Both the position numbers and the translations under genes were made by a program. From the human T2T-CHM13v2.0 reference genome, Homo sapiens: 64,000 nt of DNA. The notes below the pieces were generated by a model. The model searched no databases. It saw only the letters and a program-made list of their open reading frames with translations, and had not been told where the DNA came from. Positions 3,392 through 64,000 of this stretch are shown piece after piece; within the stretch, counting starts at the first letter, position 1, and each line of letters opens with the position of its first letter. The stretch lies in the NCBI RefSeq assembly GCF_009914755.1, contig NC_060926.1. One strand, given 5' to 3'.

Positions 3392-6300
3392 GGGAGCCAT
3401 ATTTTAAGAGTGAAGTTCCCTGTGCTCCTTCAACTGTAACCTCACTTGATGTGTAAATAGACTGTGACGTACTCTTGTAACAAGTACCTGAATCTCAGCC
3501 AATCACAGCAGCCGGCTTTTGACCAGTCACAGGTGGCTAACTGTTCAGCGTGTTGTCAAATAAAGCAAACTGAGCTGTAACCATTCCAGCTGCTTCTGTA
3601 CCTCCCTTCTGTTTTCTATACATCATTTTCCTTTCTCTATCCATAAATGTTTTCCAGGCAAGTGGCAGTCCCAAAGTGGCTTTGAACTTGTTCTGGTTTG
3701 GGGGCCTGCCTGAGTAGTGAATTGTTCTTTGCTCAGTTGAACTCTGTTAAATTTAATCTGTCCAACTCTTTTTATGGTATATACATAGGAGTGAACTTCC
3801 TGGGTTATATGTTAACACTTTAACATTTTGAGGAACTGCTAACATGTTTTCCACCGTAAAAATTTGTCTATTTTTTCCTTTGTTTGTTGTGTTTTAATAT
3901 CATATCAGAGAAATTATTGCCCAGTCCAGGGTCATGAAAATTTGGATCAATATTTTCTTCTAAGAGTTTAGTTTTATACTTTTAGTTCTCACATTAAGGT
4001 CTTTGATCCATTTTGAGTTATCTTTGTATATGATATGAGGTAGAGATGCAAATTCATCTTTTTGCATGTGAGTATCCAGTTGTACCAGATTTATCTGATT
4101 GAAAAGACTTCTTTCTCCCATTGATTAGTCTTGGCCCTACTGTAAAATATCAATTGACCATATATGTGCAAATTTATTTCTGGAATCTAAATGAGATTTC
4201 ATTGACTAATACATCTATCCTTCTGCCAATACTTTTCTATCCTCATTATTGTAATTATGTAGTAATTTTTAAAATTTAGAAGTACAAGTCATACAATTTT
4301 GTTCTACTTTTTCAGGATTGTTTTGAATATTCCGGGTCTCTTCCATTTCTATATTAATTTTAGGATAAACTCATCAATTTCTGCCAAAAAATTTAAATTT
4401 TGAAAGATATTTTATTGAATCTATAGATAAATTTGAATAGTATTGTCATCTTAATATTAAATCTTCTAATTCATAAAAACAAAATATATTTCCATTAATA
4501 TAGACTTTCTTTAATTTCTTCCATCAATAATTTGTTCTTTTCTGTGTATAAATCTTGCACTTCTTTGGTTAAATGGATTACTATGTTTCTTGAATTTTTG
4601 ATGCAATTATAAATCAAATAGTTTCCTTGATTTTATTTCAGATTTTCATTGCTCCTTCATAGAAGTACAACTAGGTTTTGTATACTAATCCTGTTTTTTA
4701 CACTCCTTCTGACTCTAACAGTTGTTTTTGTTTGTTTGTTTTTTTGTAGATGCTATAGTGTTTTTGATACATAAGATCACATTACCTACAAACAGAGATT
4801 GGTTTACTGCTTTTTTTAATCTGGAAGAGTTTTATTTATTTTCCTTGACTAATTATCCTGATTAGAACCTCTGACACAATGTCTAATAGAAGTGGTGAGG
4901 GCAGTTTCTTTGTCTTCTTCCTCATTTTAGGAAGAAAGCTTTTAGTCATTCACCGTGAAGTATGATGTTAGTTATGGATTTTCATTAAAGCCTTTATTTG
5001 GCTGAAGAATTTCCCTTCTATTACAAGTTTGTTGAATTTTTCTTTATCATAAAAGTATTGAAATTTGTAAATGTTTCATCTTAATCTGTTGAGATAATCA
5101 TGTGGTTTTTGTTCTTTATGCTATTTATAGGACTTAAAATATTATGTTAAGTGATTGTTTTCATGTTAAATCAACCTTTAATTCCTAGAATAAGTCTCAT
5201 GGGTATAATTATTTTCATTTTCTATTGAATTCAGTTGGCTAGTTTTTTCTAAGGATTTTTACGTCTATATTCATAAGGGGCATCAGTCTGTAGTTTACTT
5301 TTCATGTGATGTCTTTGTCTGGTTTTGATATTGGGGAAAAATGGCTATATAGAATAACTTTGGAAGTATTCCCTCCTCTTCTATTCTTCAAAAGAGTTAA
5401 TGAAGGATTTGTCTTAATTTTTAAGTATTTGATAGAATTTAGCAGTGAAACTATCTGGTTCTAGATTTTTCTTAGGGAATATTTTTGATCACTGAGTATC
5501 TCTACTTGTTATAGGTCTCTTCAGGTTTTTCTTTTACTTCTTTTTGAGTCAGTTTTGGTAGTTTGTATCTTTCCAAAACTCTTTATAATTCATCTACATT
5601 TTATTATTTATTGACATAAAAGTGTTATAGTATTCCCTCGTAATCCTTTTTGCTTACATAAAACCAGTAATAACGTCCTTCTTTCATTCCTCATTTTAGT
5701 AATTTGAGTCTCCTTGCATTGTTTTCTTCGCAGGTCTAGCAAAAATTTTGTGAATTTTGTTGATACTTTGCAAATCTGTTGGCATACTGACTTTCCCCTC
5801 TTGGTTTTCTATTCTCCATTTTCTGTGTTTATCCTCACTCTAATCTTTCTTATTTTCTTCTTTCTGCTTGTTCTGGGTTTAGTTTGGTCTTTTTTTTTTA
5901 ACCTTTTTTTAAGTGGAAAATTAGTATTGATTTGAGGTCTTTTTTCTTCTATACTGGAAGTTTTTATAGCTATAAATTTATCCCTGAATACTTATTTGGT
6001 TGTATCCCATAAATTTTGGTATGTTATCTTTTCATTTTATCTTGAAGTATTTCCTAATTTTTTTCTTTGACCCATTGATTGATTATTTAAAGGCACGTTC
6101 TTTAATTTCCAAGTACTTATACATTTCCTAGTTTTTCTCTTTTTTTGTACTTTTTTCCATTGTGGTTTAGAGAGATATTTTGTATGACTGCAATCATTTT
6201 AAATATAATGAGGCTTCTTTTTTAGCCTAATGTATTGTCTACCCTGAATGATGTTCCATTTACACTTCAGAAAAATGAGTACTCTGTTGTTGAGTAGAGT

Positions 6301-31092: not shown

Positions 31093-34000
31093 GTCTATGT
31101 TCATAAGGGGTATTGTTTTCGAGTTTTATTTTTTTGTTATGTCCTTTCCTGATTTTGGGGTTAGGGTGATACTGGTTTCATAGAATAATTTAAAGAGGAT
31201 TCCCTCTTTCTCTATCTTTTGGAACAGTGTCAATAGAATTGGTACCAATTCTTCTTTGAATGTCTGATAGCATTCAGCTGTGAATCTGTCTGGTCTTAAA
31301 CTTTTTTGTTGCTGTTGTTGGTAACTTTTTATTACCATCCCAATATCGCTGCTTGTTATTGGTCTATTCAGAGTTTCTATTTCTTCCTGTTCTCATCTAG
31401 GAGGGTTGTATACTTCCAGGAATTTATCCATCTTCTCTAGTTTTTCTAATTCATGGAAGTAAAGGTGCTTATAGTAGCCTTGAATGATCCTTTGTATTTC
31501 TGTGGTATTGGTTGTAACATCTGTTGTTTCACGTCTAATTGAATTTATTTGGATCTTCTTTCTTCTTTTCTTGGTTAATCTCACTAATAGTCTATCACTT
31601 GTATCTTTTCAAAGAACCAGCTTTTTGTTTCATTTATCTTTTGTATTTTTGTTTCTTTGTTTCAATTTTATTTAGTTCTGCTCTGATCTTGGTTATTTCT
31701 TTTCTTCTGCTGGATTTGGATTTGGTTTGTTCTTGTTTCTCTAGCTCCTTGAGGTGTTACCTGAGATTATCCGTTTGTGCTCTTTCAGACTTCTTGATGT
31801 AGGCATTTAATACTATGAACTTTCCTCTTAGAACTGCCTTTGCTGTATCCCAGAAGTTTTGATGGGTTGTATCACTATTATTGTCCAGTTCAAAAAAATT
31901 TTTAATTTCCATCTTGATTTCATTGTTAAACAAATGATCATTCAGGAGCAGTTATTTAATTTCCATATATATGCATGGCTTTGAGGGTTCCTTTTTGAAT
32001 TGATTTCCAATTTTATTCCACTATGGTCTGAGAGAGTATTTGTTATAATTTTGATTTTCTTAAATTTGTTGAGACTTGTTTTGTTGCCTATTATATGGTC
32101 TACCTTGGAGAATGTTCCACGTGCTGATAAATAGAATGTATATTCTGCAGTTGTTGAGTAGAATGTTCTGTAAATATCCGTTAAGTCCATTTATTCCAAG
32201 GTATAGTTTAAGTCCATTGTTTCTTTGTTGAATTTCTGTCTTGATGACCTGTCTAGTGCTGTCAATGGAGTATTGAAGTCCCCCACTATTATTGTGTTGC
32301 TGTCTATCTCATTTCTTAGGTCTAGTAGTAATTGTTTTTGTAAATCTGGGAGCTTCAGTGTTAGGTGCATAGGATTGTGATATTTTCCTGTGGGACTAGC
32401 CCTTTTATCATTATGTAATGTCCCTCTTTGTCTTTTTTAACGCTGTTGCTTTAAAGTTTGTTTTGTCTGATATAAGAATAACTACTCCTGCTTGCTTTTG
32501 GTATCCATTTGCATGGAAAATCTTTTTCCACCCTTTACCTTAAGTTTATGTGAGTCTTTATGTGTCAGGTGAGTCTCTTGAAGACAGCAGCTACTTGGTT
32601 GCTGAATTCTTATCCATTCTGCCATTCTGTATCTTTTAACTGGAGCATTTAGGCCATTTACATTCAATGTTAGTATTGAGATGTGAGGCACTAGTGTATT
32701 CATTGTGCTATTTGTTGCTTGATACCTTTTTTTTCCATTGTGTTGTCATTTTATAGGTGTTGTGAGATTTATGTTTTAAGAAGATTCTATTTTGGTGTAA
32801 TTTCAAGGATTTGTTTCAAGATTTAGAGCTCCTTTTAGCAGTTCTTGTAGTGCTGGCTTGGTAGTGGAAAATTCTCTCAGCATTTGTCTGAAAAACACTG
32901 TATCTTTCCTCATTTTGAAGCTTAGTTTCACTGAATACAAAATTATTGGTTGATAATTGTTTTGTTTAAGGAGGCTAAAAATAGGACACCAGTCTTTTCT
33001 AGCTTGTAGGGTTTCTGCTGAGAAATCTGCTGTTAATCTGATAGGTTTTCCTTCATAGGTTACCTGATGCTTTTGCCTCACAGCTCTTAAGGTTCTTTCT
33101 TTTACATTGACTTTAGATAACCTGATGACTATGTGCCTAGGCGATGATCCTTTTGCGATGAATGTCCCAGGTGTTCTCTGAGCTTCTTGTATTTGGATGT
33201 CTAGATCTCTAGCAAGGCTGGGGAAGTTTTCCTCAATTATTCCCTCAAATTTGTTTTCCATCCTTTTAGATTTCTCTCCTTCCTCAGGAACACCAGTTAT
33301 TCTCAGGTTTGGTCATTTAACATAATCCCAAACTTCTTGGAGGCTTTGTTCCTTTTTAAAATTCTTTTTTCTTTGTCTTTGTTAGATTGGATTAAATCAA
33401 AAGCCTTGTTTTCAAGCTCTGAAATTCTTTCTTCTACTTGTTCAATTCTCTTGCTGAGACTTTCTAGTGCATTTTGCAATTCTGTAAGTGTGTGTGTCCT
33501 TCATTTCCAGACGTTGTGATTGTTTTTTATTTACGCTATGTATTTCACAGGAGATTTTTCCATTCATATCCTGTATCTTTTTTTTTTTTATAATTTCTTT
33601 AAGTTGGATTTCACTTTTCTCTTACCTCCTTGATTCACTTACTAGTTGACTTTCTGAATTCTTTTTCTGGCAATTCAGAGATTTTGTCTTGGTTTGGATC
33701 CATTACTGGCAAGCTAGTGTGATCTTTTGGAGAGTGTTAAAGAACCTTGTTTTGTCATATTACCAGAATCACTTTTCTAGTTCCTTCTCATTTGGGTAGA
33801 CTATTTCAGAAGGAAGATCTGGGACTCAAGGGCTGCTGTTCAGATTCATTTGCCCTTCGGGAGGCTCCCATGATGTCTTTTTCTGTCCTTTCCCTTAGGG
33901 ATGGGGCTTCCTGACAGCTGAACAGTAATGAGTATTATTTCTCTTCTGGGTCTAGCCACCCAGCAGAGCTACCGGGCCCTGGGCTGGTACTAGTGAGTGT

Positions 34001-34414: not shown

Positions 34415-36110
34415 AATAGCTACTCCTATCACTTGTGGTTTCCATTTGTGTAAAATATTTTTCCACCCCTTTACCTTGAGTCTATAAGAATCCTTACATG
34501 TTAGATATGCCTCCTGAATACAGCATATATTTTGTTTCTGATGTTTCATCCATTATGCCAATCTATGTCTTTTAAGTGGAGCATTTAGACCAGTTTCAAT
34601 GTTAATATTGATGCATGAGGTACTATTCCAGTCTTCATGTTGATTGTTGCTTAGTGAGTTTATTTTCTTCATTGTGTTACCATTTTTATAAGTCCTGTGA
34701 ATTTTGTGCTTTCAGGAGTTTCTATTCTGATACACATCAACCTCTTGTTTAAAGATTTATAACTCCTTTTAAGATGTCTTGTAGGGCTGGGATAGTATTG
34801 ACAAATTCCCTCTGCAGGAGCTTGCCTGATAAATACTTTGTTTATTCACTTTTTAGGAAACTTAGTTTTGGTAGGTACAAAATTCTTGGCTGAAAGTTTT
34901 TCTGTTTAAGGAGAATAAAGATAGGAACCCAATCCCTTCTGTCTTGTAAGTTTTCTGCTGAGAAGCCTGTTGTTAGTCTGATAGGTTTTCCTTTAGGAGC
35001 TACCTCTTGCTTTTGTCTCACTGCTCTTAGAATTCTTTCCTTTACATTGACTTTAGATAGCATGATAATTATATGACTTGGTGATGTCTTTTTTGCAATA
35101 AGTCTCCAAGGAGTTCTTTTTGCTTCTTGCATTTTGATATTTAAATCTCGAACAAGACCAGGGATGTTTTCCTCAATTATTCCTCCAAGTAGACTTTCCA
35201 AAGTTTTAATTTTTCTCCTCCTACAGAAGAAGAAACACCTATAAATCTTAGGTCTGGCCATTTTATATAACCGCATATTTCTTGGTGACTTTGTTCATTT
35301 ATTTTAATTCCTTTTTCTTCATTTTTGTCTGATTGGGTTAATTCAAAGCCTTGTATTCAAGCTATGAAGTTGTTTCCTCTACTTGGACAAGTCTGTTAAA
35401 ACTTTCCACTGCACTGAGTAGTTTCCTAAATGTATCTTTCATTTCCAGAAGTTCTCATTGTTTTTTCTTTAAAATACGTATATTTTAGAACATTTTTTAT
35501 TCATATTCTAAATCATTTAAAAATTTCTTTATGTTGGCTTTCATCTTTATCTTGTATCTTCTTGAGTAACTTAGTAATCAATCTTTTGAATTATTTATTT
35601 GGTATTTCAATGATTTTATCTTGGTTTGGATCCACTGCTTGAGTTAGTGTGATCTTTTGGGGGTATCATAAAACCCTGCTTTTTCATATTGCCAGAATTA
35701 TTTTTCTGGTTCCTTCTCATTTAGATAGACTATTTCTTCTAATTATTTTTAAATTTATTTTTTATTCAATTGGATTTTCTTGATTTTTCTTTTTTCCTTC
35801 TTGAGGATAGTTTATTGTCACCTAGCCTTGGCTCGGGATGCTTTCAGTTGCAAAGACTCCATATGAGTTCCTTAGATATAGAGAATGTTTGTGCAGCAGC
35901 TTTCTCAGATGCTGTTTGTAGGAGTGATGTGCTGGGTGTGTGAGCTGGTTCAATGTCTCCTGTCGGGAGTTTTCCGTCTTGTTCACAGTTTAGGATGCTG
36001 CCCGACACTTTCATCAAAAGGTCTGTGGTTTCATTCAGCTTTTCTGTTATGTTTCTGTGTTGTTTCTTGGACAAGAGTTTACTGTATGGATCTCTACACA
36101 CTATTTTGTC
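34415..36110 (-). mobile_element. Second L1 5' half (ORF2 start, ORF1, 5'UTR)
   Basis: Minus ORF 34842-35276 IIEENIPGLVRD..IRLTTGFSAENLQDRRDW is ORF1p-like. Confidence 0.88.
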
Positions 36111-52235: not shown

Positions 52236-52734
52236 AGTTATGAAATTCAACCTCTATTTTCCTTCCTGGAGCATGCCTTTCTCAATTCTGAGATCCCTGA
52301 TTGTCTCCGTCAGAAAACAAACAAACAAGGAAACAGAACTTGTAGGGAGGTTGATACTAGCAGAGTGTTCTGTGTGGTGCCTGGGGCTGGGGGTGATGCA
52401 GTGGAGGTGCACAGTCTGTCTTGTCAGTGTGGGAAGATGAAGCAGACGCCAGCAGGATCCAGCAGCCAAGGCTCCTGCAGCATCAGTGCTAAGCCAGGGG
52501 CCTGGTGAAGCATTGCAGCAGGGCGAGGAAGGAGAGAACACTGCACTGCCAGCTTCTGCAAAGTTGATCAGTTGCTTCAAAACTCCTCAGGTTTCTTCAT
52601 TCTCCTGCGTTTTGTGCCTCAGAGAAGAGGTCTATGGCCAATGAAATTTGAGTATAGTTGTGATTTGTCTGTCTCTGGATGCTTATAAAATGTTTGACGC
52701 TCATAATTGCAATGCAAAAATGTAGGCAGATATC

Positions 52735-53220
52735 ACTGTCTTCTGATTTCTCGGCTCTCACTCCCGTACAATCCACTTTTTAAATATTAGCCTGGTGAAT
52801 CTCTTTCAAATATAAATTTTATTGTTACCTTCATGTTTAGAAACGTGCAATGTCTTTCATGGCCTTTAGAATAGAACTGGGCTCCTCTCCCTGGCCAGGA
52901 GGATGGGTGTGGCTTGGCTTCTGATGGCCTCTCTGACCCCCTTTCCTGGATCCCCCTGCAAACCTCCTCTGACTCCAGCAGAGCCAAGTCCTGCCTGGTT
53001 GTGCTGCTGGATCATTACCACCTTAGAGACCGGCACTGCTGTTCCCTCTGCTGACATGTTCCACCTCAAGATACTTGGCAGGCCAGATCCAAGCTCCAAG
53101 CTCCTCTCCAAAGAGACATTCTCTGCACAGCCTGCTCCACTCCACTCCCACCGTGTCTGCTGCCTCACAATTTTTCATGTTTCTTCCTATCACCAATCAC
53201 CAGCACTTATATTCTGCCTG
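52735..53220 (+). mobile_element. L2 fragment
   Basis: tcatggcctttagaatagaac..ttctgatggcc..gctgttccctctgct. Confidence 0.6.
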
Positions 53221-54140
53221 TATATACTAAAACTAATGAACTAAAAGTTTTTTGATATCCGTTGTAATTGGTCACAACTTTTCACTCTCACTGGTTATGT
53301 GTATTTGTACTGGATGCCAAGCATTTACATTACTCTAGCTTACCAGTAACTGTGGCTATCTTGTTCTTTTACACGCTTGTGGTCTGTCTCTCCCCACTGC
53401 CCATGAGCTGCCTGGGAGCAGGAAACAGCCTGGCAGCATGTCAGAGACTGCTGGGCATGAACAGCACGGGCCCTCACTAGAGATGTCCCTGGAAAAATGA
53501 ATGACTTCTTCCAGGAGCAGTGTGCCAAGCCCTGCATCTGTAGACTCTCAGAGCTTTTTAAAAAATTAGGAAACACATTTTCTTCCATTATGTCCCCAAT
53601 TGTTGCTTCTGTTATTCCTAACCCTACATTTCTTAGGTTGAATCTCCCTTTTCAGTTCTCAATTTTTAGCATCTTTTTCTTGCATTATTTTTATCTTCAC
53701 TATTTTGATTTTTCATATACTCAACTGTGTATTCTTCTGCCTCTAATGCATCTTTTAATTCTGTTATTTAATGTTGAGTGTCCTCAACTTCTTCCACTAT
53801 CTGTTTCCTTTCCAACTCAGCTTGTCCCTGGACACTTACCTTTTTGTTACATTTTTAAACAAGTTGTGCACTTGCATCCTGTTGAAGACACCAAATGATA
53901 ATGTCTAAATTTCAATTTATTGAAGAAAATCATTTCTTCCTTGTACTTCAACTAAAGCTTTGGGTTAATTTCATTTATTTATTACGTGGGATTTTTTTTA
54001 AAGCTTTGTAAATTTTTTTTTTCTTCACCTTTTACCTAAGGGAAGACCTACTCAGCCTCAATGGGCAGTGCTCTCCACCCAGGTGTTGTTAGTGCCCTCT
54101 TTATCAGAGCTGGAGGAGAAGGGAGCCCGAGGCGTGCAAC

Positions 54141-55115
54141 TGTGTCCAGAATTGGTGGGTTCTTGGTCTCACTGACTTCAAGAATGAAGCCATGGACCCT
54201 TGCGGGGAGTGTTACAGTTCTTAAAGATGGTGTGTCTGGAGTTTGTTGCTTCTGATGTTCAGACGTGTTCAGAGTTTCTTCCTTCTGGTGGGTTCGTGGT
54301 CTCACTGGCCTCAGGAGTGAAGCTGCAGACCTTCGGGGTGAATGTTACAGTTCACAAAGATGGGGCATCTGGAGTTGTTCCTCCCTCCCGGAGTGAAGCT
54401 ACAGACCTTTGCAGGTAGTGTTACAGCTCATTAATGCAGCACAGACCCAAAGAGGGAGCAGCAGCACGATTTACTGCTAAGAGAGAAAACACAAACCTTC
54501 CACAGAGTGGAAGGTGACACAAGCAGGTTGCTGCTGCTGGCCCGGGTGGCCTGCTTTTATTCCCTTATTCGGCCCCGCCCACATCCTGCTGATTGGTCCA
54601 TTTTGCAGAGCATTGATTGGTCCATTTTACAGAGCGGTGATTGGTCCGTTTTGACAGAGTGCTGATTGGTGCCTTTACAAATCTTTAGCTAGAGGGAAAA
54701 GTTCTCCGAGTCCCCACCTGTCCCAGAAGCCCAGCCGGCTACACCTCTCAATGGCACTCGCGGGGGACTTGGCGGCACCTAACCTGGGCACTCAGGCAGC
54801 CCAGAGGGAGCTCATCCCCGGATCAAGCCCAGCAGGCGCGGCCGGCTGCGCCTAGTGCAGGCCCGCGGAGCCCGCGCCCACCCGGAACTGCGCAGGCCCG
54901 CGAGCGCCAGGCGCAGCACCGGCTCCAGCCGGCACCTCTCCCTCCACACCTCCCCGCTAGCAGAGGGAGCCAACTCCGGCCTCGGCCAGCCCCAGAGAGG
55001 GGTCCCCACAGCGCAGCGGCGGGCTGAAGGGCTCCTCAAGCACGGCCAGGGCGGACGCCTAGGCCGAGGAGGCGCCAAGAGCGATCGAGGGCTGCTAGCA
55101 CGTTGTCACCGCTCA
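54141..55115 (-). mobile_element. LTR12 (HERV9) solo LTR
   Basis: Minus strand TGAGCGGTGACAACGTGCTAGCAGCCCTC...GAACCCACCAATTCTGGACACA; perfect 4-bp TSD caac (54137-54140, 55116-55119). Confidence 0.95.
54554..54670 (-). promoter_or_regulatory. LTR12 core promoter: four CCAAT (NF-Y) boxes, GC box, AATAAAAG TATA-like box
   Basis: gattgg at ~54591, 54615, 54639 and 54664; ccccgccc at ~54573; cttttatt at 54554. Confidence 0.75.
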
Positions 55116-55454
55116 CAACTACTGGAAAACATTCAGGTAGGACCTTACTTCTGAATGTAAGTGGACTCTCTGCCTTACTCCATGGCCTGACTCTAAGCTG
55201 GTGAAAAGTATAAAACCTTTGAACACTCAGTGTGCATCGCCCCAGAATGCATCTAAAGGCCTCATCCTCCAGGTATGCAAGCTGTACCTCCTAGGATGCA
55301 GTGCCCTGAACCCCACCCCTACCTGCTGTCTGCAGTCCATATCTGGAGTTTCTAATCAATTTTCATGGACAGGGGTGATGGGGGGGATACAAAGATCAGT
55401 TCTCAGTGTTTTAGGTTCCACATGGTTCTTTCTTTTATGTGTTTATTCATTCAT

Positions 55455-56670
55455 CTTCATTGAAGTATAATTGACAAATAAAAATTGTGTATATTTAACG
55501 TGTACAATGTGATGTTTTGATATACATGTACATTGTGAAGTGATCACAATCAAGCTGATTAACATATCCATCACCTTATAGGAGATAGTTGTTATTTTCT
55601 TTTTGCATATGTGTGGTGAGAACATTAATGTAAGACCTACACTCCTGGCAAATGTTGAGCAGACAACACATTATTATTAACTATAGTTACCATGCTGGAA
55701 CTTAGCTCTCCACAACTTATTCATCTTACATTACTGAAACTTTGTACCCTTTTTCCATCTTCCTATCTTTCCCTCCCACAGTCCCTGGTAACCACTGTTC
55801 TACTGTTTGCTTCTATGAATTTGACATTTTTAGAACCTATGTTTGAGATCCTGCAGTATTTGTCTTTCTGTGCCTGGCTTATTTCATTAAGCATAATGTT
55901 CTCTAGGTTCACCCATGTTGTTAAAAATGGTAGGATTTCCTTCTTTTTGTGACTGAATAGTATTCTGTTGTATATTATATCACATTTTCTTTATCCATTC
56001 ATCCACCAATGGACATTTGAATTGTTTCTGTATCCTGGCTACTGTGAATAATATTTCAGTGAATATGAGTGCAGATATTTCTTCAAGACACTGATTTTGT
56101 TTGCATTTGATATATACTCAGAAGAGGGATTGCTAGATCATATGGGAGTTCTATTTTTAATTTTTTGAGGAACCTCCATACTGTTTTTCATAATGACTGT
56201 ACCAGTTACATTCCACCAACAGTGTACAAAGGTTCCTTTTTCTCTACATACTAAACAACACTTGTAATCTTTGGACTTTTTGATAATAGCCATTTTAACA
56301 GGAGTGAGCTGATATCTCCTTGGTGTTTTGATTTACATTTTCCTGATGATAATCAGTGATGTTGAGCACCTTTTCATCTACCTGTTGGCCATTTGAAGGT
56401 TTTCTTTTGAGAACTGTCTATTCAAGACCTTTGTCTATTTTTAAAATTGGAATATTTATTTATTTATTTATTTATTGCTATTGTGTTGTATGAGTTCCTT
56501 ATATATTTTGGATACTAATACCATAGAGTTTGCATATCTGTAAGTTGCCTCTTCACTCAGTTGATTGTTTTCTTTGCTATCTAGAAACTTTTTAGTTTGA
56601 TGCAATTCCACTTGTCTATTTTTGCTTTCTTTGCCTGTCCTCTTGAGATTGTATTAAAAAACGTCCAGAC
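55455..56670 (-). mobile_element. L1MA (older) 3' portion
   Basis: ttgaagtataattgacaaataaaaattgt..atcaagctgattaacatatccatcacc. Confidence 0.85.
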
Positions 56671-56680
56671 TAGTTCTTAC

Positions 56681-64000
<7,320 letters not shown>

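What the first reader, a model, noticed from the sequence alone, without database searches (positions are those of the whole stretch)
54041..55136. LTR12 solo LTR inserted inside an exon
Seen: removing 54141-55119 (LTR plus one caac TSD) fuses 100 bp and 17 bp into a 117-bp exon with strong acceptor and donor and an open phase-0 frame. Known: LTR12/HERV9 insertions are primate-specific and comparatively young. Inference: the insertion either killed the gene or was tolerated because the gene was already dead, and so gives a dated marker.
Basis: partly seen in the sequence, partly recalled or inferred. Interest (0 to 1): 0.75.

Follow-up and report, generated by a model that had tools for sequence, protein, structure and literature searches.

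The report
Old ERV9 solo LTR, chance pseudo-exon
This is an ordinary, roughly 30-million-year-old retroviral solo LTR sitting in unique DNA of a gene desert, and the "exon" it seems to split is most likely a chance look-alike rather than the remains of a gene.

Summary
The LTR half of the finding is confirmed. Window 54141-55115 is a 975-bp ERV9/LTR12-type solo LTR with TG...CA ends and a perfect 4-bp CAAC target duplication. Relatives in the same genome share these ends and carry their own 4-bp duplications. Its sense strand is the window's minus strand, so it lies antisense to the proposed exon. It belongs to a star-like group of copies with end branches of about 0.12-0.13 changes per site, 0.05 at non-CpG sites. 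That places it in the oldest ERV9 layer, about 25-45 Myr, not a young one.

The exon half is not supported. The arithmetic is right: 100 + 17 = 117 nt with frame 0 open. However, frame 2 is open too, the acceptor is AAG, and a second donor lies 20 nt further on. The gene-free window holds about six other open AG...GT intervals at least as good, and about 1% of sites fall inside one. The peptide has no paralogue, Pfam, PDB or protein-library match, and no gene is annotated there. Orthologous empty sites could not be examined with these tools.

The parts
54137..54140 (.). left copy of the 4-bp target-site duplication (CAAC)
   Evidence: 5 of 7 relatives with both ends read have their own perfect 4-bp duplication
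54141..55115 (-). ERV9/LTR12-type solo LTR, 975 bp; its sense strand is the window's minus strand
   Evidence: 5174 first-look candidates in the own genome, full-length relatives 75-79% identical over 1-975. Shared termini. Promoter layout read on the minus strand matches the description in PMC11853044 section 5
55116..55119 (.). right copy of the target-site duplication (CAAC)
54701..55115 (-). 5' part of U3, G+C-rich (72% GC, 37 CpG, observed/expected 0.70)
54588..54670 (-). U3 tandem array, 3.4 units of 24 nt, carrying 4 CCAAT boxes (read as GATTGG on the + strand at 54591, 54615, 54639, 54664)
54711..54717 (-). GTGGGGA motif (G-rich, MZF1-like motif named in the review)
   Evidence: read; motif as given in PMC11853044
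54572..54580 (-). GC box (GGGCGGGGC) between the last CCAAT box and the AATAAAA motif
54555..54561 (-). AATAAAA, the TATA-like motif of LTR12
   Evidence: exact in 8 of 12 copies compared, the window's included
54530..54541 (-). start-site motif, 2 mismatches to GCCAGCAGTGGC; the inverted repeat GCCANNNNTGGC is broken
   Evidence: motif from PMC11853044
54470..54475 (-). AGTAAA where 5 of the 11 relatives have AATAAA (likely the R-region poly(A) signal, weakened here)
54153..54434 (-). U5-side direct repeats (91-nt pair 79% alike; a third partial 44-nt copy)
   Evidence: U5 'B elements' described in PMC11853044
54041..54140 (+). left 100 nt of the proposed exon; judged a chance pseudo-exon in unique intergenic DNA
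55120..55136 (+). right 17 nt of the proposed exon, followed by donor-like GTAGGA; a second donor-like site lies 20 nt further on

Best explanation
An ERV9 retrovirus integrated into unique intergenic DNA of a gene desert, in the orientation of the window's minus strand, and its integrase duplicated 4 bp (CAAC). Recombination between the two LTRs later removed the provirus body and left a solo LTR. This happened in the earliest ERV9 wave, about 25-45 Myr ago. Since then the LTR has decayed. Four CCAAT boxes, the GC box and the AATAAAA motif survive. The start-site inverted repeat is broken, the GATA motif is not detectable, and the poly(A) hexamer reads AGTAAA. The 117-nt 'exon' that appears when the LTR is taken out is a pseudo-exon: a pyrimidine run plus AG, a GT with a fair consensus, and no stop codon in between. 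This arises by chance at about 1% of positions in this window. No gene was killed.

Shown: element boundaries, duplication, orientation, relative age, and the chance rate of such intervals.
Inferred: the integration and recombination history, the absolute age, and the absence of a gene.
For: LTR identity and boundaries:
- 5174 first-look candidates in the genome; full-length relatives cover 1-975 at 75-79% identity.
- Relatives have identical termini; of 7 with both ends read, 5 have a perfect 4-bp duplication of their own.

Orientation:
- On the minus strand the order is CCAAT x4, GC box, AATAAAA, then about 20 nt to GCCAGCAGCAGC, then AGTAAA about 65 nt further.
- The 11 relatives show the same order.
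- This is the layout described for LTR12 in PMC11853044 section 5.

Age:
- The tree is star-like. End branch of the window's copy is 0.13, median 0.12, and inner branches are at most 0.01.
- Three-point K2P end branch is 0.098 at all sites, 0.051 at non-CpG sites and 0.233 at CpG columns.
- PMC8767690 passages place the earliest LTR12/ERV9 integrants at the human-macaque ancestor, about 30 Mya.

Against an exon:
- 2 of 3 frames are open, and the open frames overrun both junctions.
- The acceptor ranks 154th of 3754 AG sites and the donor 17th of 3694 GT sites.
- 7 open intervals in the window, candidate included, are at least as good at both sites; plain consensus counts give 8.
- 0.97% of sites lie inside one.
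- The 33-aa peptide finds only itself in the genome, the next match having E = 3.5.
- It finds 0 Pfam families, 0 PDB chains at E <= 10 and 0 of 1.84 billion representatives at E <= 0.001.
- The 46-aa read-through finds 0 longer proteins at E <= 10.
- The left flank 52600-54140 and the right flank to about 55440 are single-copy.
- The hub annotation lists no gene.
- Pseudo-exons are reported to outnumber real exons tenfold (PMC1935003, one passage).
Against: - Only about 1% of positions lie in a pseudo-exon this good, so for one pre-chosen insertion the coincidence would be mildly unusual. It is unremarkable only because the pattern was looked for after the fact, among many insertions and windows.
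- The donor is in the top 0.5% of GT sites and the pyrimidine tract is very good.
- The 100-nt left part is richer in G+C (58%) than the 500 nt before it (31%), as exons often are.
- The protein searches have little power for 33-46 residues, and I do not know how well those libraries cover vertebrates.
- Cross-species conservation and RNA evidence, the decisive tests, could not be run.
- My splice-site matrices are recalled approximations.
Confidence: 0.88

Rival explanations
1. One reading: the 117 nt are a real coding exon of an ancestral gene (a unitary pseudogene in humans), and the ERV9 insertion either inactivated it or landed in it after it had died.
For: AG with a 16 of 18 pyrimidine tract, a donor matching 7 of 9 positions, an open frame of 39 codons, and a length that is a multiple of three. 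Local G+C is higher than upstream. Both flanks are single-copy, not repeat-derived.
Against: - No annotated gene in the window or within 100 kb upstream (hub table).
- No paralogue, domain, solved-structure or library match.
- The second frame is equally open and both frames overrun the junctions.
- The acceptor has A at -3, and there is a competing donor 20 nt on.
- About six comparable intervals occur in the same gene-free window.
- None of the 55 translated frames sent to Pfam (54 of the 64 listed stop-to-stop frames of 90 aa or more, plus P0001) matched anything but L1 ORF1 domains, apart from one chance hit.
Confidence: 0.04
2. The interval is, or was, an exon of an unannotated non-coding or rarely spliced transcript. 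The LTR sits in it without consequence for any protein.
For: Splice-like signals of fair quality. lncRNA genes exist about 100 kb downstream (hub table), so the desert is not transcriptionally silent.
Against: No RefSeq model overlaps it (hub table). Nothing in the sequence separates it from the other pseudo-exons of the window. No RNA data were available here.
Confidence: 0.06
3. The LTR still works as a promoter or enhancer, and the nearby splice-like sites belong to an LTR-driven transcript.
For: Four intact CCAAT boxes, a GC box and AATAAAA survive. LTR12 elements are known NF-Y-dependent promoters and enhancers (PMC11853044). 48 CpG are retained.
Against: - The LTR's sense strand is the minus strand, so its transcripts would run towards 54141 and lower coordinates.
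- The proposed acceptor and donor are on the + strand, and the donor lies upstream of U3.
- The start-site inverted repeat is broken.
- No GATA motif at up to 3 mismatches: none of the 30 window matches lies in the LTR.
- No gene within 100 kb on the low-coordinate side (hub table).
Confidence: 0.05

Closest known systems
LTR12 (ERV9) solo LTRs of catarrhine primates, short forms without the long 5' extension of LTR12C/D/E
   Same: - TG...CA ends and a 4-bp target duplication.
- A U3 tandem array with CCAAT boxes, a GTGGGGA motif and a GC box.
- AATAAAA about 20 nt before a GCCAGCAG... start-site motif, and CpG-rich U3.
- Thousands of genomic relatives.
(PMC11853044)
   Different: - Only 3.4 short (24-nt) repeat units, against the 5-17 units of about 41 nt described for LTR12.
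- No recognisable GATA motif.
- Broken start-site inverted repeat and a weakened poly(A) hexamer.
- The subfamily (LTR12, LTR12_, LTR12B and so on) could not be assigned, because no repeat library is on hand.
Pseudo-exons (intronic or intergenic intervals with splice-site-like ends that are not spliced)
   Same: AG with a pyrimidine tract, a GT donor, exon-like length, no transcript evidence, and similar intervals elsewhere in the same window. Reported to outnumber real exons about tenfold (PMC1935003).
   Different: It happens to be the target of an LTR insertion, which drew attention to it. Its donor score is in the top 0.5% of GT sites.
Unitary pseudogenes disrupted by a transposable-element insertion (recalled as a class; no specific case checked here)
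   Same: This would be the pattern if the exon were real: an insertion with a target duplication inside an otherwise open, splice-bounded interval.
   Different: Such cases are recognised by intact orthologues in other species and by the remaining exons nearby. Neither was found or could be tested here, and the peptide has no relatives.

Membership tests
LTR12 / ERV9 long terminal repeat | TG...CA termini, shared with other copies | tested here: met
   TGTG...CTCA in the window. The same ends appear in 8 relatives at the left end and 8 at the right end as displayed; L008 begins CG, not TG.
LTR12 / ERV9 long terminal repeat | 4-bp target-site duplication (recalled as typical of class I ERVs) | tested here: met
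   CAAC/CAAC in the window. Of 7 relatives with both ends read, 5 are perfect, 1 has 3 of 4, and 1 has none.
LTR12 / ERV9 long terminal repeat | U3 tandem repeats carrying CCAAT (NF-Y) boxes | tested here: met
   TRF array 54588-54670, period 24, 3.4 copies. Four GATTGG at 24-25-nt spacing, out of 23 in the whole window. Feature as described in PMC11853044. The unit is shorter and the copy number lower than the 5-17 units of about 41 nt described.
LTR12 / ERV9 long terminal repeat | GATA-site motif TCTGTATCTAGCT in the repeats | tested here: not met
   None of the 30 window matches at up to 3 mismatches lies in 54141-55115. This is a common feature, not a strictly defining one, and may be lost by decay.
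LTR12 / ERV9 long terminal repeat | G-rich GTGGGGA motif | tested here: met
   Present at 54717-54711 on the minus strand.
LTR12 / ERV9 long terminal repeat | AATAAAA upstream of the start-site motif GCCAGCAGTGGC, with an Sp1/GC box before it | tested here: inconclusive
   The GC box (54580-54572) and AATAAAA (54561-54555) are present. The start-site motif at 54541-54530 has 2 mismatches that break the inverted repeat. The spacing is about 20 nt against 'about 30' in the review. The same layout occurs in the relatives.
LTR12 / ERV9 long terminal repeat | sequence similarity to the several thousand genomic LTR12 copies | tested here: met
   5174 first-look candidates, 40 scored, 103 matched pieces. 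The review gives 4,000-6,000 LTR12 elements. That the relatives are themselves named LTR12 rests on the motif layout, not on a repeat library.
LTR12 / ERV9 long terminal repeat | assignment to a named subfamily by a curated repeat model (Dfam/Repbase) | not testable with these tools
   No repeat library is available. The length of 975 bp fits the short forms, by comparison with the lengths in PMC11853044.
internal protein-coding exon | acceptor: pyrimidine tract + YAG | tested here: inconclusive
   16 of 18 pyrimidines but AAG, with A at -3 (rare in real acceptors, recalled). Matrix score is 154th of 3754 AG sites.
internal protein-coding exon | donor: MAG|GTRAGT | tested here: met
   7 of 9 positions; 17th of 3694 GT sites. 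A competing 8 of 9 site lies 20 nt downstream.
internal protein-coding exon | one open frame, more than chance | tested here: not met
   Frames 0 and 2 are both open. They extend 39 nt or 1 nt before the acceptor and 15 nt or 65 nt past the donor. Comparable open intervals: 7 by matrix and 8 by consensus counts, candidate included.
internal protein-coding exon | encoded peptide has relatives (paralogue, domain or orthologue) | tested here: not met
   Own genome: self only, next match E = 3.5. Pfam 0. PDB 0 at E <= 10. 1.84 billion representatives: 0 at E <= 0.001. Longer proteins: 0 at E <= 10. Power is low for 33-46 residues, and vertebrate coverage of the libraries is unknown.
internal protein-coding exon | conservation of boundaries and frame in species with the empty site; spliced RNA | not testable with these tools
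   No primate or mammalian genomes other than this assembly, and no RNA data, are reachable here.

The most novel reading that the evidence does not exclude
The 117 nt are the last recognisable exon of a gene that existed in early anthropoids and was inactivated, or already dead, when one of the very first ERV9 integrations hit it about 30-45 Myr ago. That would give a dated gene loss at the base of the catarrhines in what is now a gene desert.
Probability: 0.04. Interest if true: 0.45.

Novelty: already known. Interest (0 to 1): 0.08.

Why it matters
As it stands it matters little. It is one of several thousand ERV9 solo LTRs and is certainly picked up by standard repeat annotation. Three points are useful:
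- The insertion is old, so it is no marker for recent primate branches.
- It lies antisense to the proposed exon.
- An 'exon' found by deleting a repeat needs a chance control, because this window yields about one such interval per 10 kb of sequence (both strands scanned).

Had the exon been real, it would have been a dated gene loss in the catarrhine stem.

Tried and rejected
- Paralogue or parent-gene search with the 33-aa peptide in the own genome found only itself.
- Pfam on 55 translated frames (54 of the 64 listed stop-to-stop frames of 90 aa or more, plus P0001) gave only L1 ORF1 domains in two frames and one weak Biopterin_H hit. That hit is chance: no hydroxylase appears in the PDB search, and the frame is a high-copy repeat with 6142 candidates.
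- Rfam over the whole window found nothing at gathering scores.
- Protein-library searches were empty. These searches are of low power.
- My first assumption, from memory, was that the LTR is in sense on the + strand, so that the donor at 55137 might serve an LTR-driven transcript. I rejected this after reading the review's promoter description and the minus strand.
- No consensus of the LTR copies was made. Dating used only a tree and pairwise distances.

Full report
**What is in the sequence**

Window 54141-55115 is a 975-bp element that begins TGTG and ends CTCA. The four bases CAAC stand directly before it (54137-54140) and directly after it (55116-55119). It contains several internal features:
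- a 91-nt direct repeat pair (54153-54243 and 54286-54376, 79% alike) with a third partial copy;
- a tandem array of 3.4 units of 24 nt at 54588-54670;
- a very G+C-rich stretch at 54701-55115 (72% GC, 37 CpG).

**Is it a repeat, and are the ends right?**

A DNA search of the window's own assembly gave 5174 first-look candidates. Forty were scored, giving 103 matched pieces. Several relatives are collinear with the whole query, bases 1-975, at 75-79% identity.

I cut out 11 relatives and read their ends. They share the window copy's termini. Of the 7 with both ends read, 5 are flanked by a perfect 4-bp duplication of their own (CTTC, TTGC, TTAC, GTAT, TTAA), one has 3 of 4 bases, and one has none. 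So the boundaries, the solo state and the 4-bp duplication are confirmed.

**Which family, and which strand?**

I first took the + strand to be the sense strand, from memory. That was wrong.

The review PMC11853044 (passages, section 5 read whole) describes the LTR12 layout:
- U3 tandem repeats with CCAAT boxes and a GTGGGGA motif;
- an Sp1 site just before an AATAAAA motif;
- the start site in GCCAGCAGTGGC, about 30 nt after that motif.

Read on the minus strand, the window's element has these in the same order:
- GTGGGGA at 54717-54711;
- four CCAAT boxes within 54669-54591;
- GGGCGGGGC at 54580-54572;
- AATAAAA at 54561-54555;
- GCCAGCAGCAGC at 54541-54530, two mismatches that break the inverted repeat;
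- AGTAAA at 54475-54470.

The 11 relatives show the same order on the same strand. Counting all 12 copies, the window's included:
- exact AATAAAA is present in 8;
- a start-site motif with at most 2 mismatches at the expected place is present in 7; L013's only match lies elsewhere;
- among the 11 relatives alone, AATAAA about 85 nt after the TATA-like motif is present in 5 and AGTAAA in 2, the window's own copy also reading AGTAAA.

The GATA motif given in the review is not found in the element at up to 3 mismatches.

The element is therefore an ERV9/LTR12-type LTR whose sense strand is the window's minus strand. It lies antisense to the proposed exon. The donor-like site at 55137 lies upstream of U3, so it cannot belong to an LTR-driven transcript. 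The subfamily cannot be named without a repeat library. At 975 bp it is one of the short forms; the review gives about 500 bp for LTR12F and over 1,300 bp for LTR12E.

**Age**

A maximum-likelihood tree of the 12 copies is star-like. Inner branches are at most 0.01, end branches run from 0.09 to 0.14 (median 0.12), and the window's copy has 0.13.

Pairwise K2P distances with a three-point estimate give end branches for the window's copy of 0.098 at all columns, 0.051 at columns never part of a CpG, and 0.233 at CpG columns. The relatives look alike.

With recalled neutral rates of about 1.2 to 2.2 x 10^-9 per site per year, the non-CpG value gives roughly 23-43 Myr. This is an upper-leaning estimate, because the end branch also holds differences that arose before integration.

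PMC8767690 (passages) traces the earliest LTR12/ERV9 integrants to the human-macaque ancestor, about 30 Mya. It places the expansion of the 5'-extended LTR12C/D/E forms in hominoids about 10 Myr later. PMC11853044 also gives about 30 Myr for the first invasion.

The window's copy thus belongs to the oldest layer. I expect it in all catarrhines, so the empty site should be sought in New World monkeys and beyond. This is an inference and was not tested.

**The 'exon'**

Leaving out 54141-55119 joins 100 nt (54041-54140) and 17 nt (55120-55136) into 117 nt with AG before and GT after, and frame 0 is open. Several points count against it:
- Frame 2 is open too; only frame 1 has a stop.
- In the joined sequence, frame 0 is open for 171 nt and frame 2 for 183 nt, both running past the supposed junctions.
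- The acceptor has 16 of 18 pyrimidines but A at -3.
- The donor matches 7 of 9 consensus positions.
- A second donor-like site 20 nt further on matches 8 of 9 and gives an open 137-nt interval.

**Chance control**

I scored sites with position matrices recalled from the classical splice-site tables. These are approximate.
- The acceptor ranks 154th of 3754 AG sites on the + strand.
- The donor ranks 17th of 3694 GT sites.
- Open intervals of 50-300 nt at least as good at both ends number 4 on the + strand and 3 on the - strand, candidate included.
- Plain consensus counts, with no matrix, give 5 and 3.
- Such intervals cover 0.97% of positions, rising to 3.3% with somewhat looser thresholds.

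The window has no annotated gene (hub table), so all of these are pseudo-exons. A 1-in-100 coincidence, found after the fact among the many insertions of many windows, is expected. Pseudo-exons are reported to outnumber real exons about tenfold (PMC1935003, one passage).

**Coding evidence**

The 33-residue peptide read from the window (P0001) gave these results:
- own genome in six frames: only itself, next match E = 3.5;
- Pfam: no family;
- PDB: no chain at E <= 10;
- 1.84 billion representative proteins: none at E <= 0.001.

These searches have little power at this length, and I do not know how well the libraries cover vertebrates, so they are weak negatives.

The flanks are single-copy: 52600-54140 on the left, and 55116 to about 55440 on the right. 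So the interval is neither repeat-derived nor part of a duplicated gene.

Fifty-four of the 64 listed stop-to-stop frames of 90 aa or more were sent to Pfam. None showed a cellular domain.

I cannot dismiss these points:
- the donor is good;
- the pyrimidine tract is very good;
- the length is a multiple of three;
- the 100-nt left part is 58% G+C against 31% in the 500 nt before it.

The decisive tests are conservation of boundaries and frame at empty-site orthologues, and spliced RNA. Neither can be run with these tools.

**Verdict**

It is an LTR12-type solo LTR, but the exon is most likely a chance pseudo-exon, the element is old rather than young, and it lies antisense. My odds are:
- chance pseudo-exon in intergenic DNA: about 0.88;
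- unannotated non-coding exon: about 0.06;
- relic coding exon: about 0.04.

The separate question of whether the LTR is still an active promoter or enhancer gets about 0.05. It concerns the LTR rather than the exon, so it is not part of that split. Interest is low.

Noticed in passing
window 55443-56660 (+): About 325 bp to the right of the LTR begins a high-copy old repeat: 19,681 first-look candidates, relatives 70-77% identical, 11 of the 48 non-self matched pieces on contig C23. It is probably an old L1 3' region (inference; not named by any tool).
   Followed up: partly
window 62471-62767 (-): A 99-aa open frame gave a weak Pfam Biopterin_H hit (E = 0.0015, 18 bits, below the cut-off). 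This is a chance hit: no hydroxylase appears in the PDB search, and the frame is a high-copy repeat ORF with 6142 candidates in the genome. From memory it looks like the coiled-coil part of L1 ORF1.
   Followed up: yes
window 32806-33312 (-) and 34845-35294 (-): Two open frames carry the L1 ORF1 RBD-like and dsRBD-like domains (E = 2.6e-31 and 1.4e-21 for Transposase_22). Two L1 ORF1 pieces lie 2 kb apart on the same strand.
   Followed up: no
window 53461-53898 (+): A 145-codon stop-free frame just upstream of the LTR in 31-35% G+C DNA. The strand is strongly pyrimidine-rich (AT skew -0.28 to -0.45), which alone suppresses stop codons. No Pfam family, and the stretch is single-copy.
   Followed up: partly
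L009 (G000:C14:25908793-25909938): This relative of the LTR has the family's termini but no matching 4-bp duplication (AAAA versus CCAG). It may be one end of a rearranged or recombined element.
   Followed up: no
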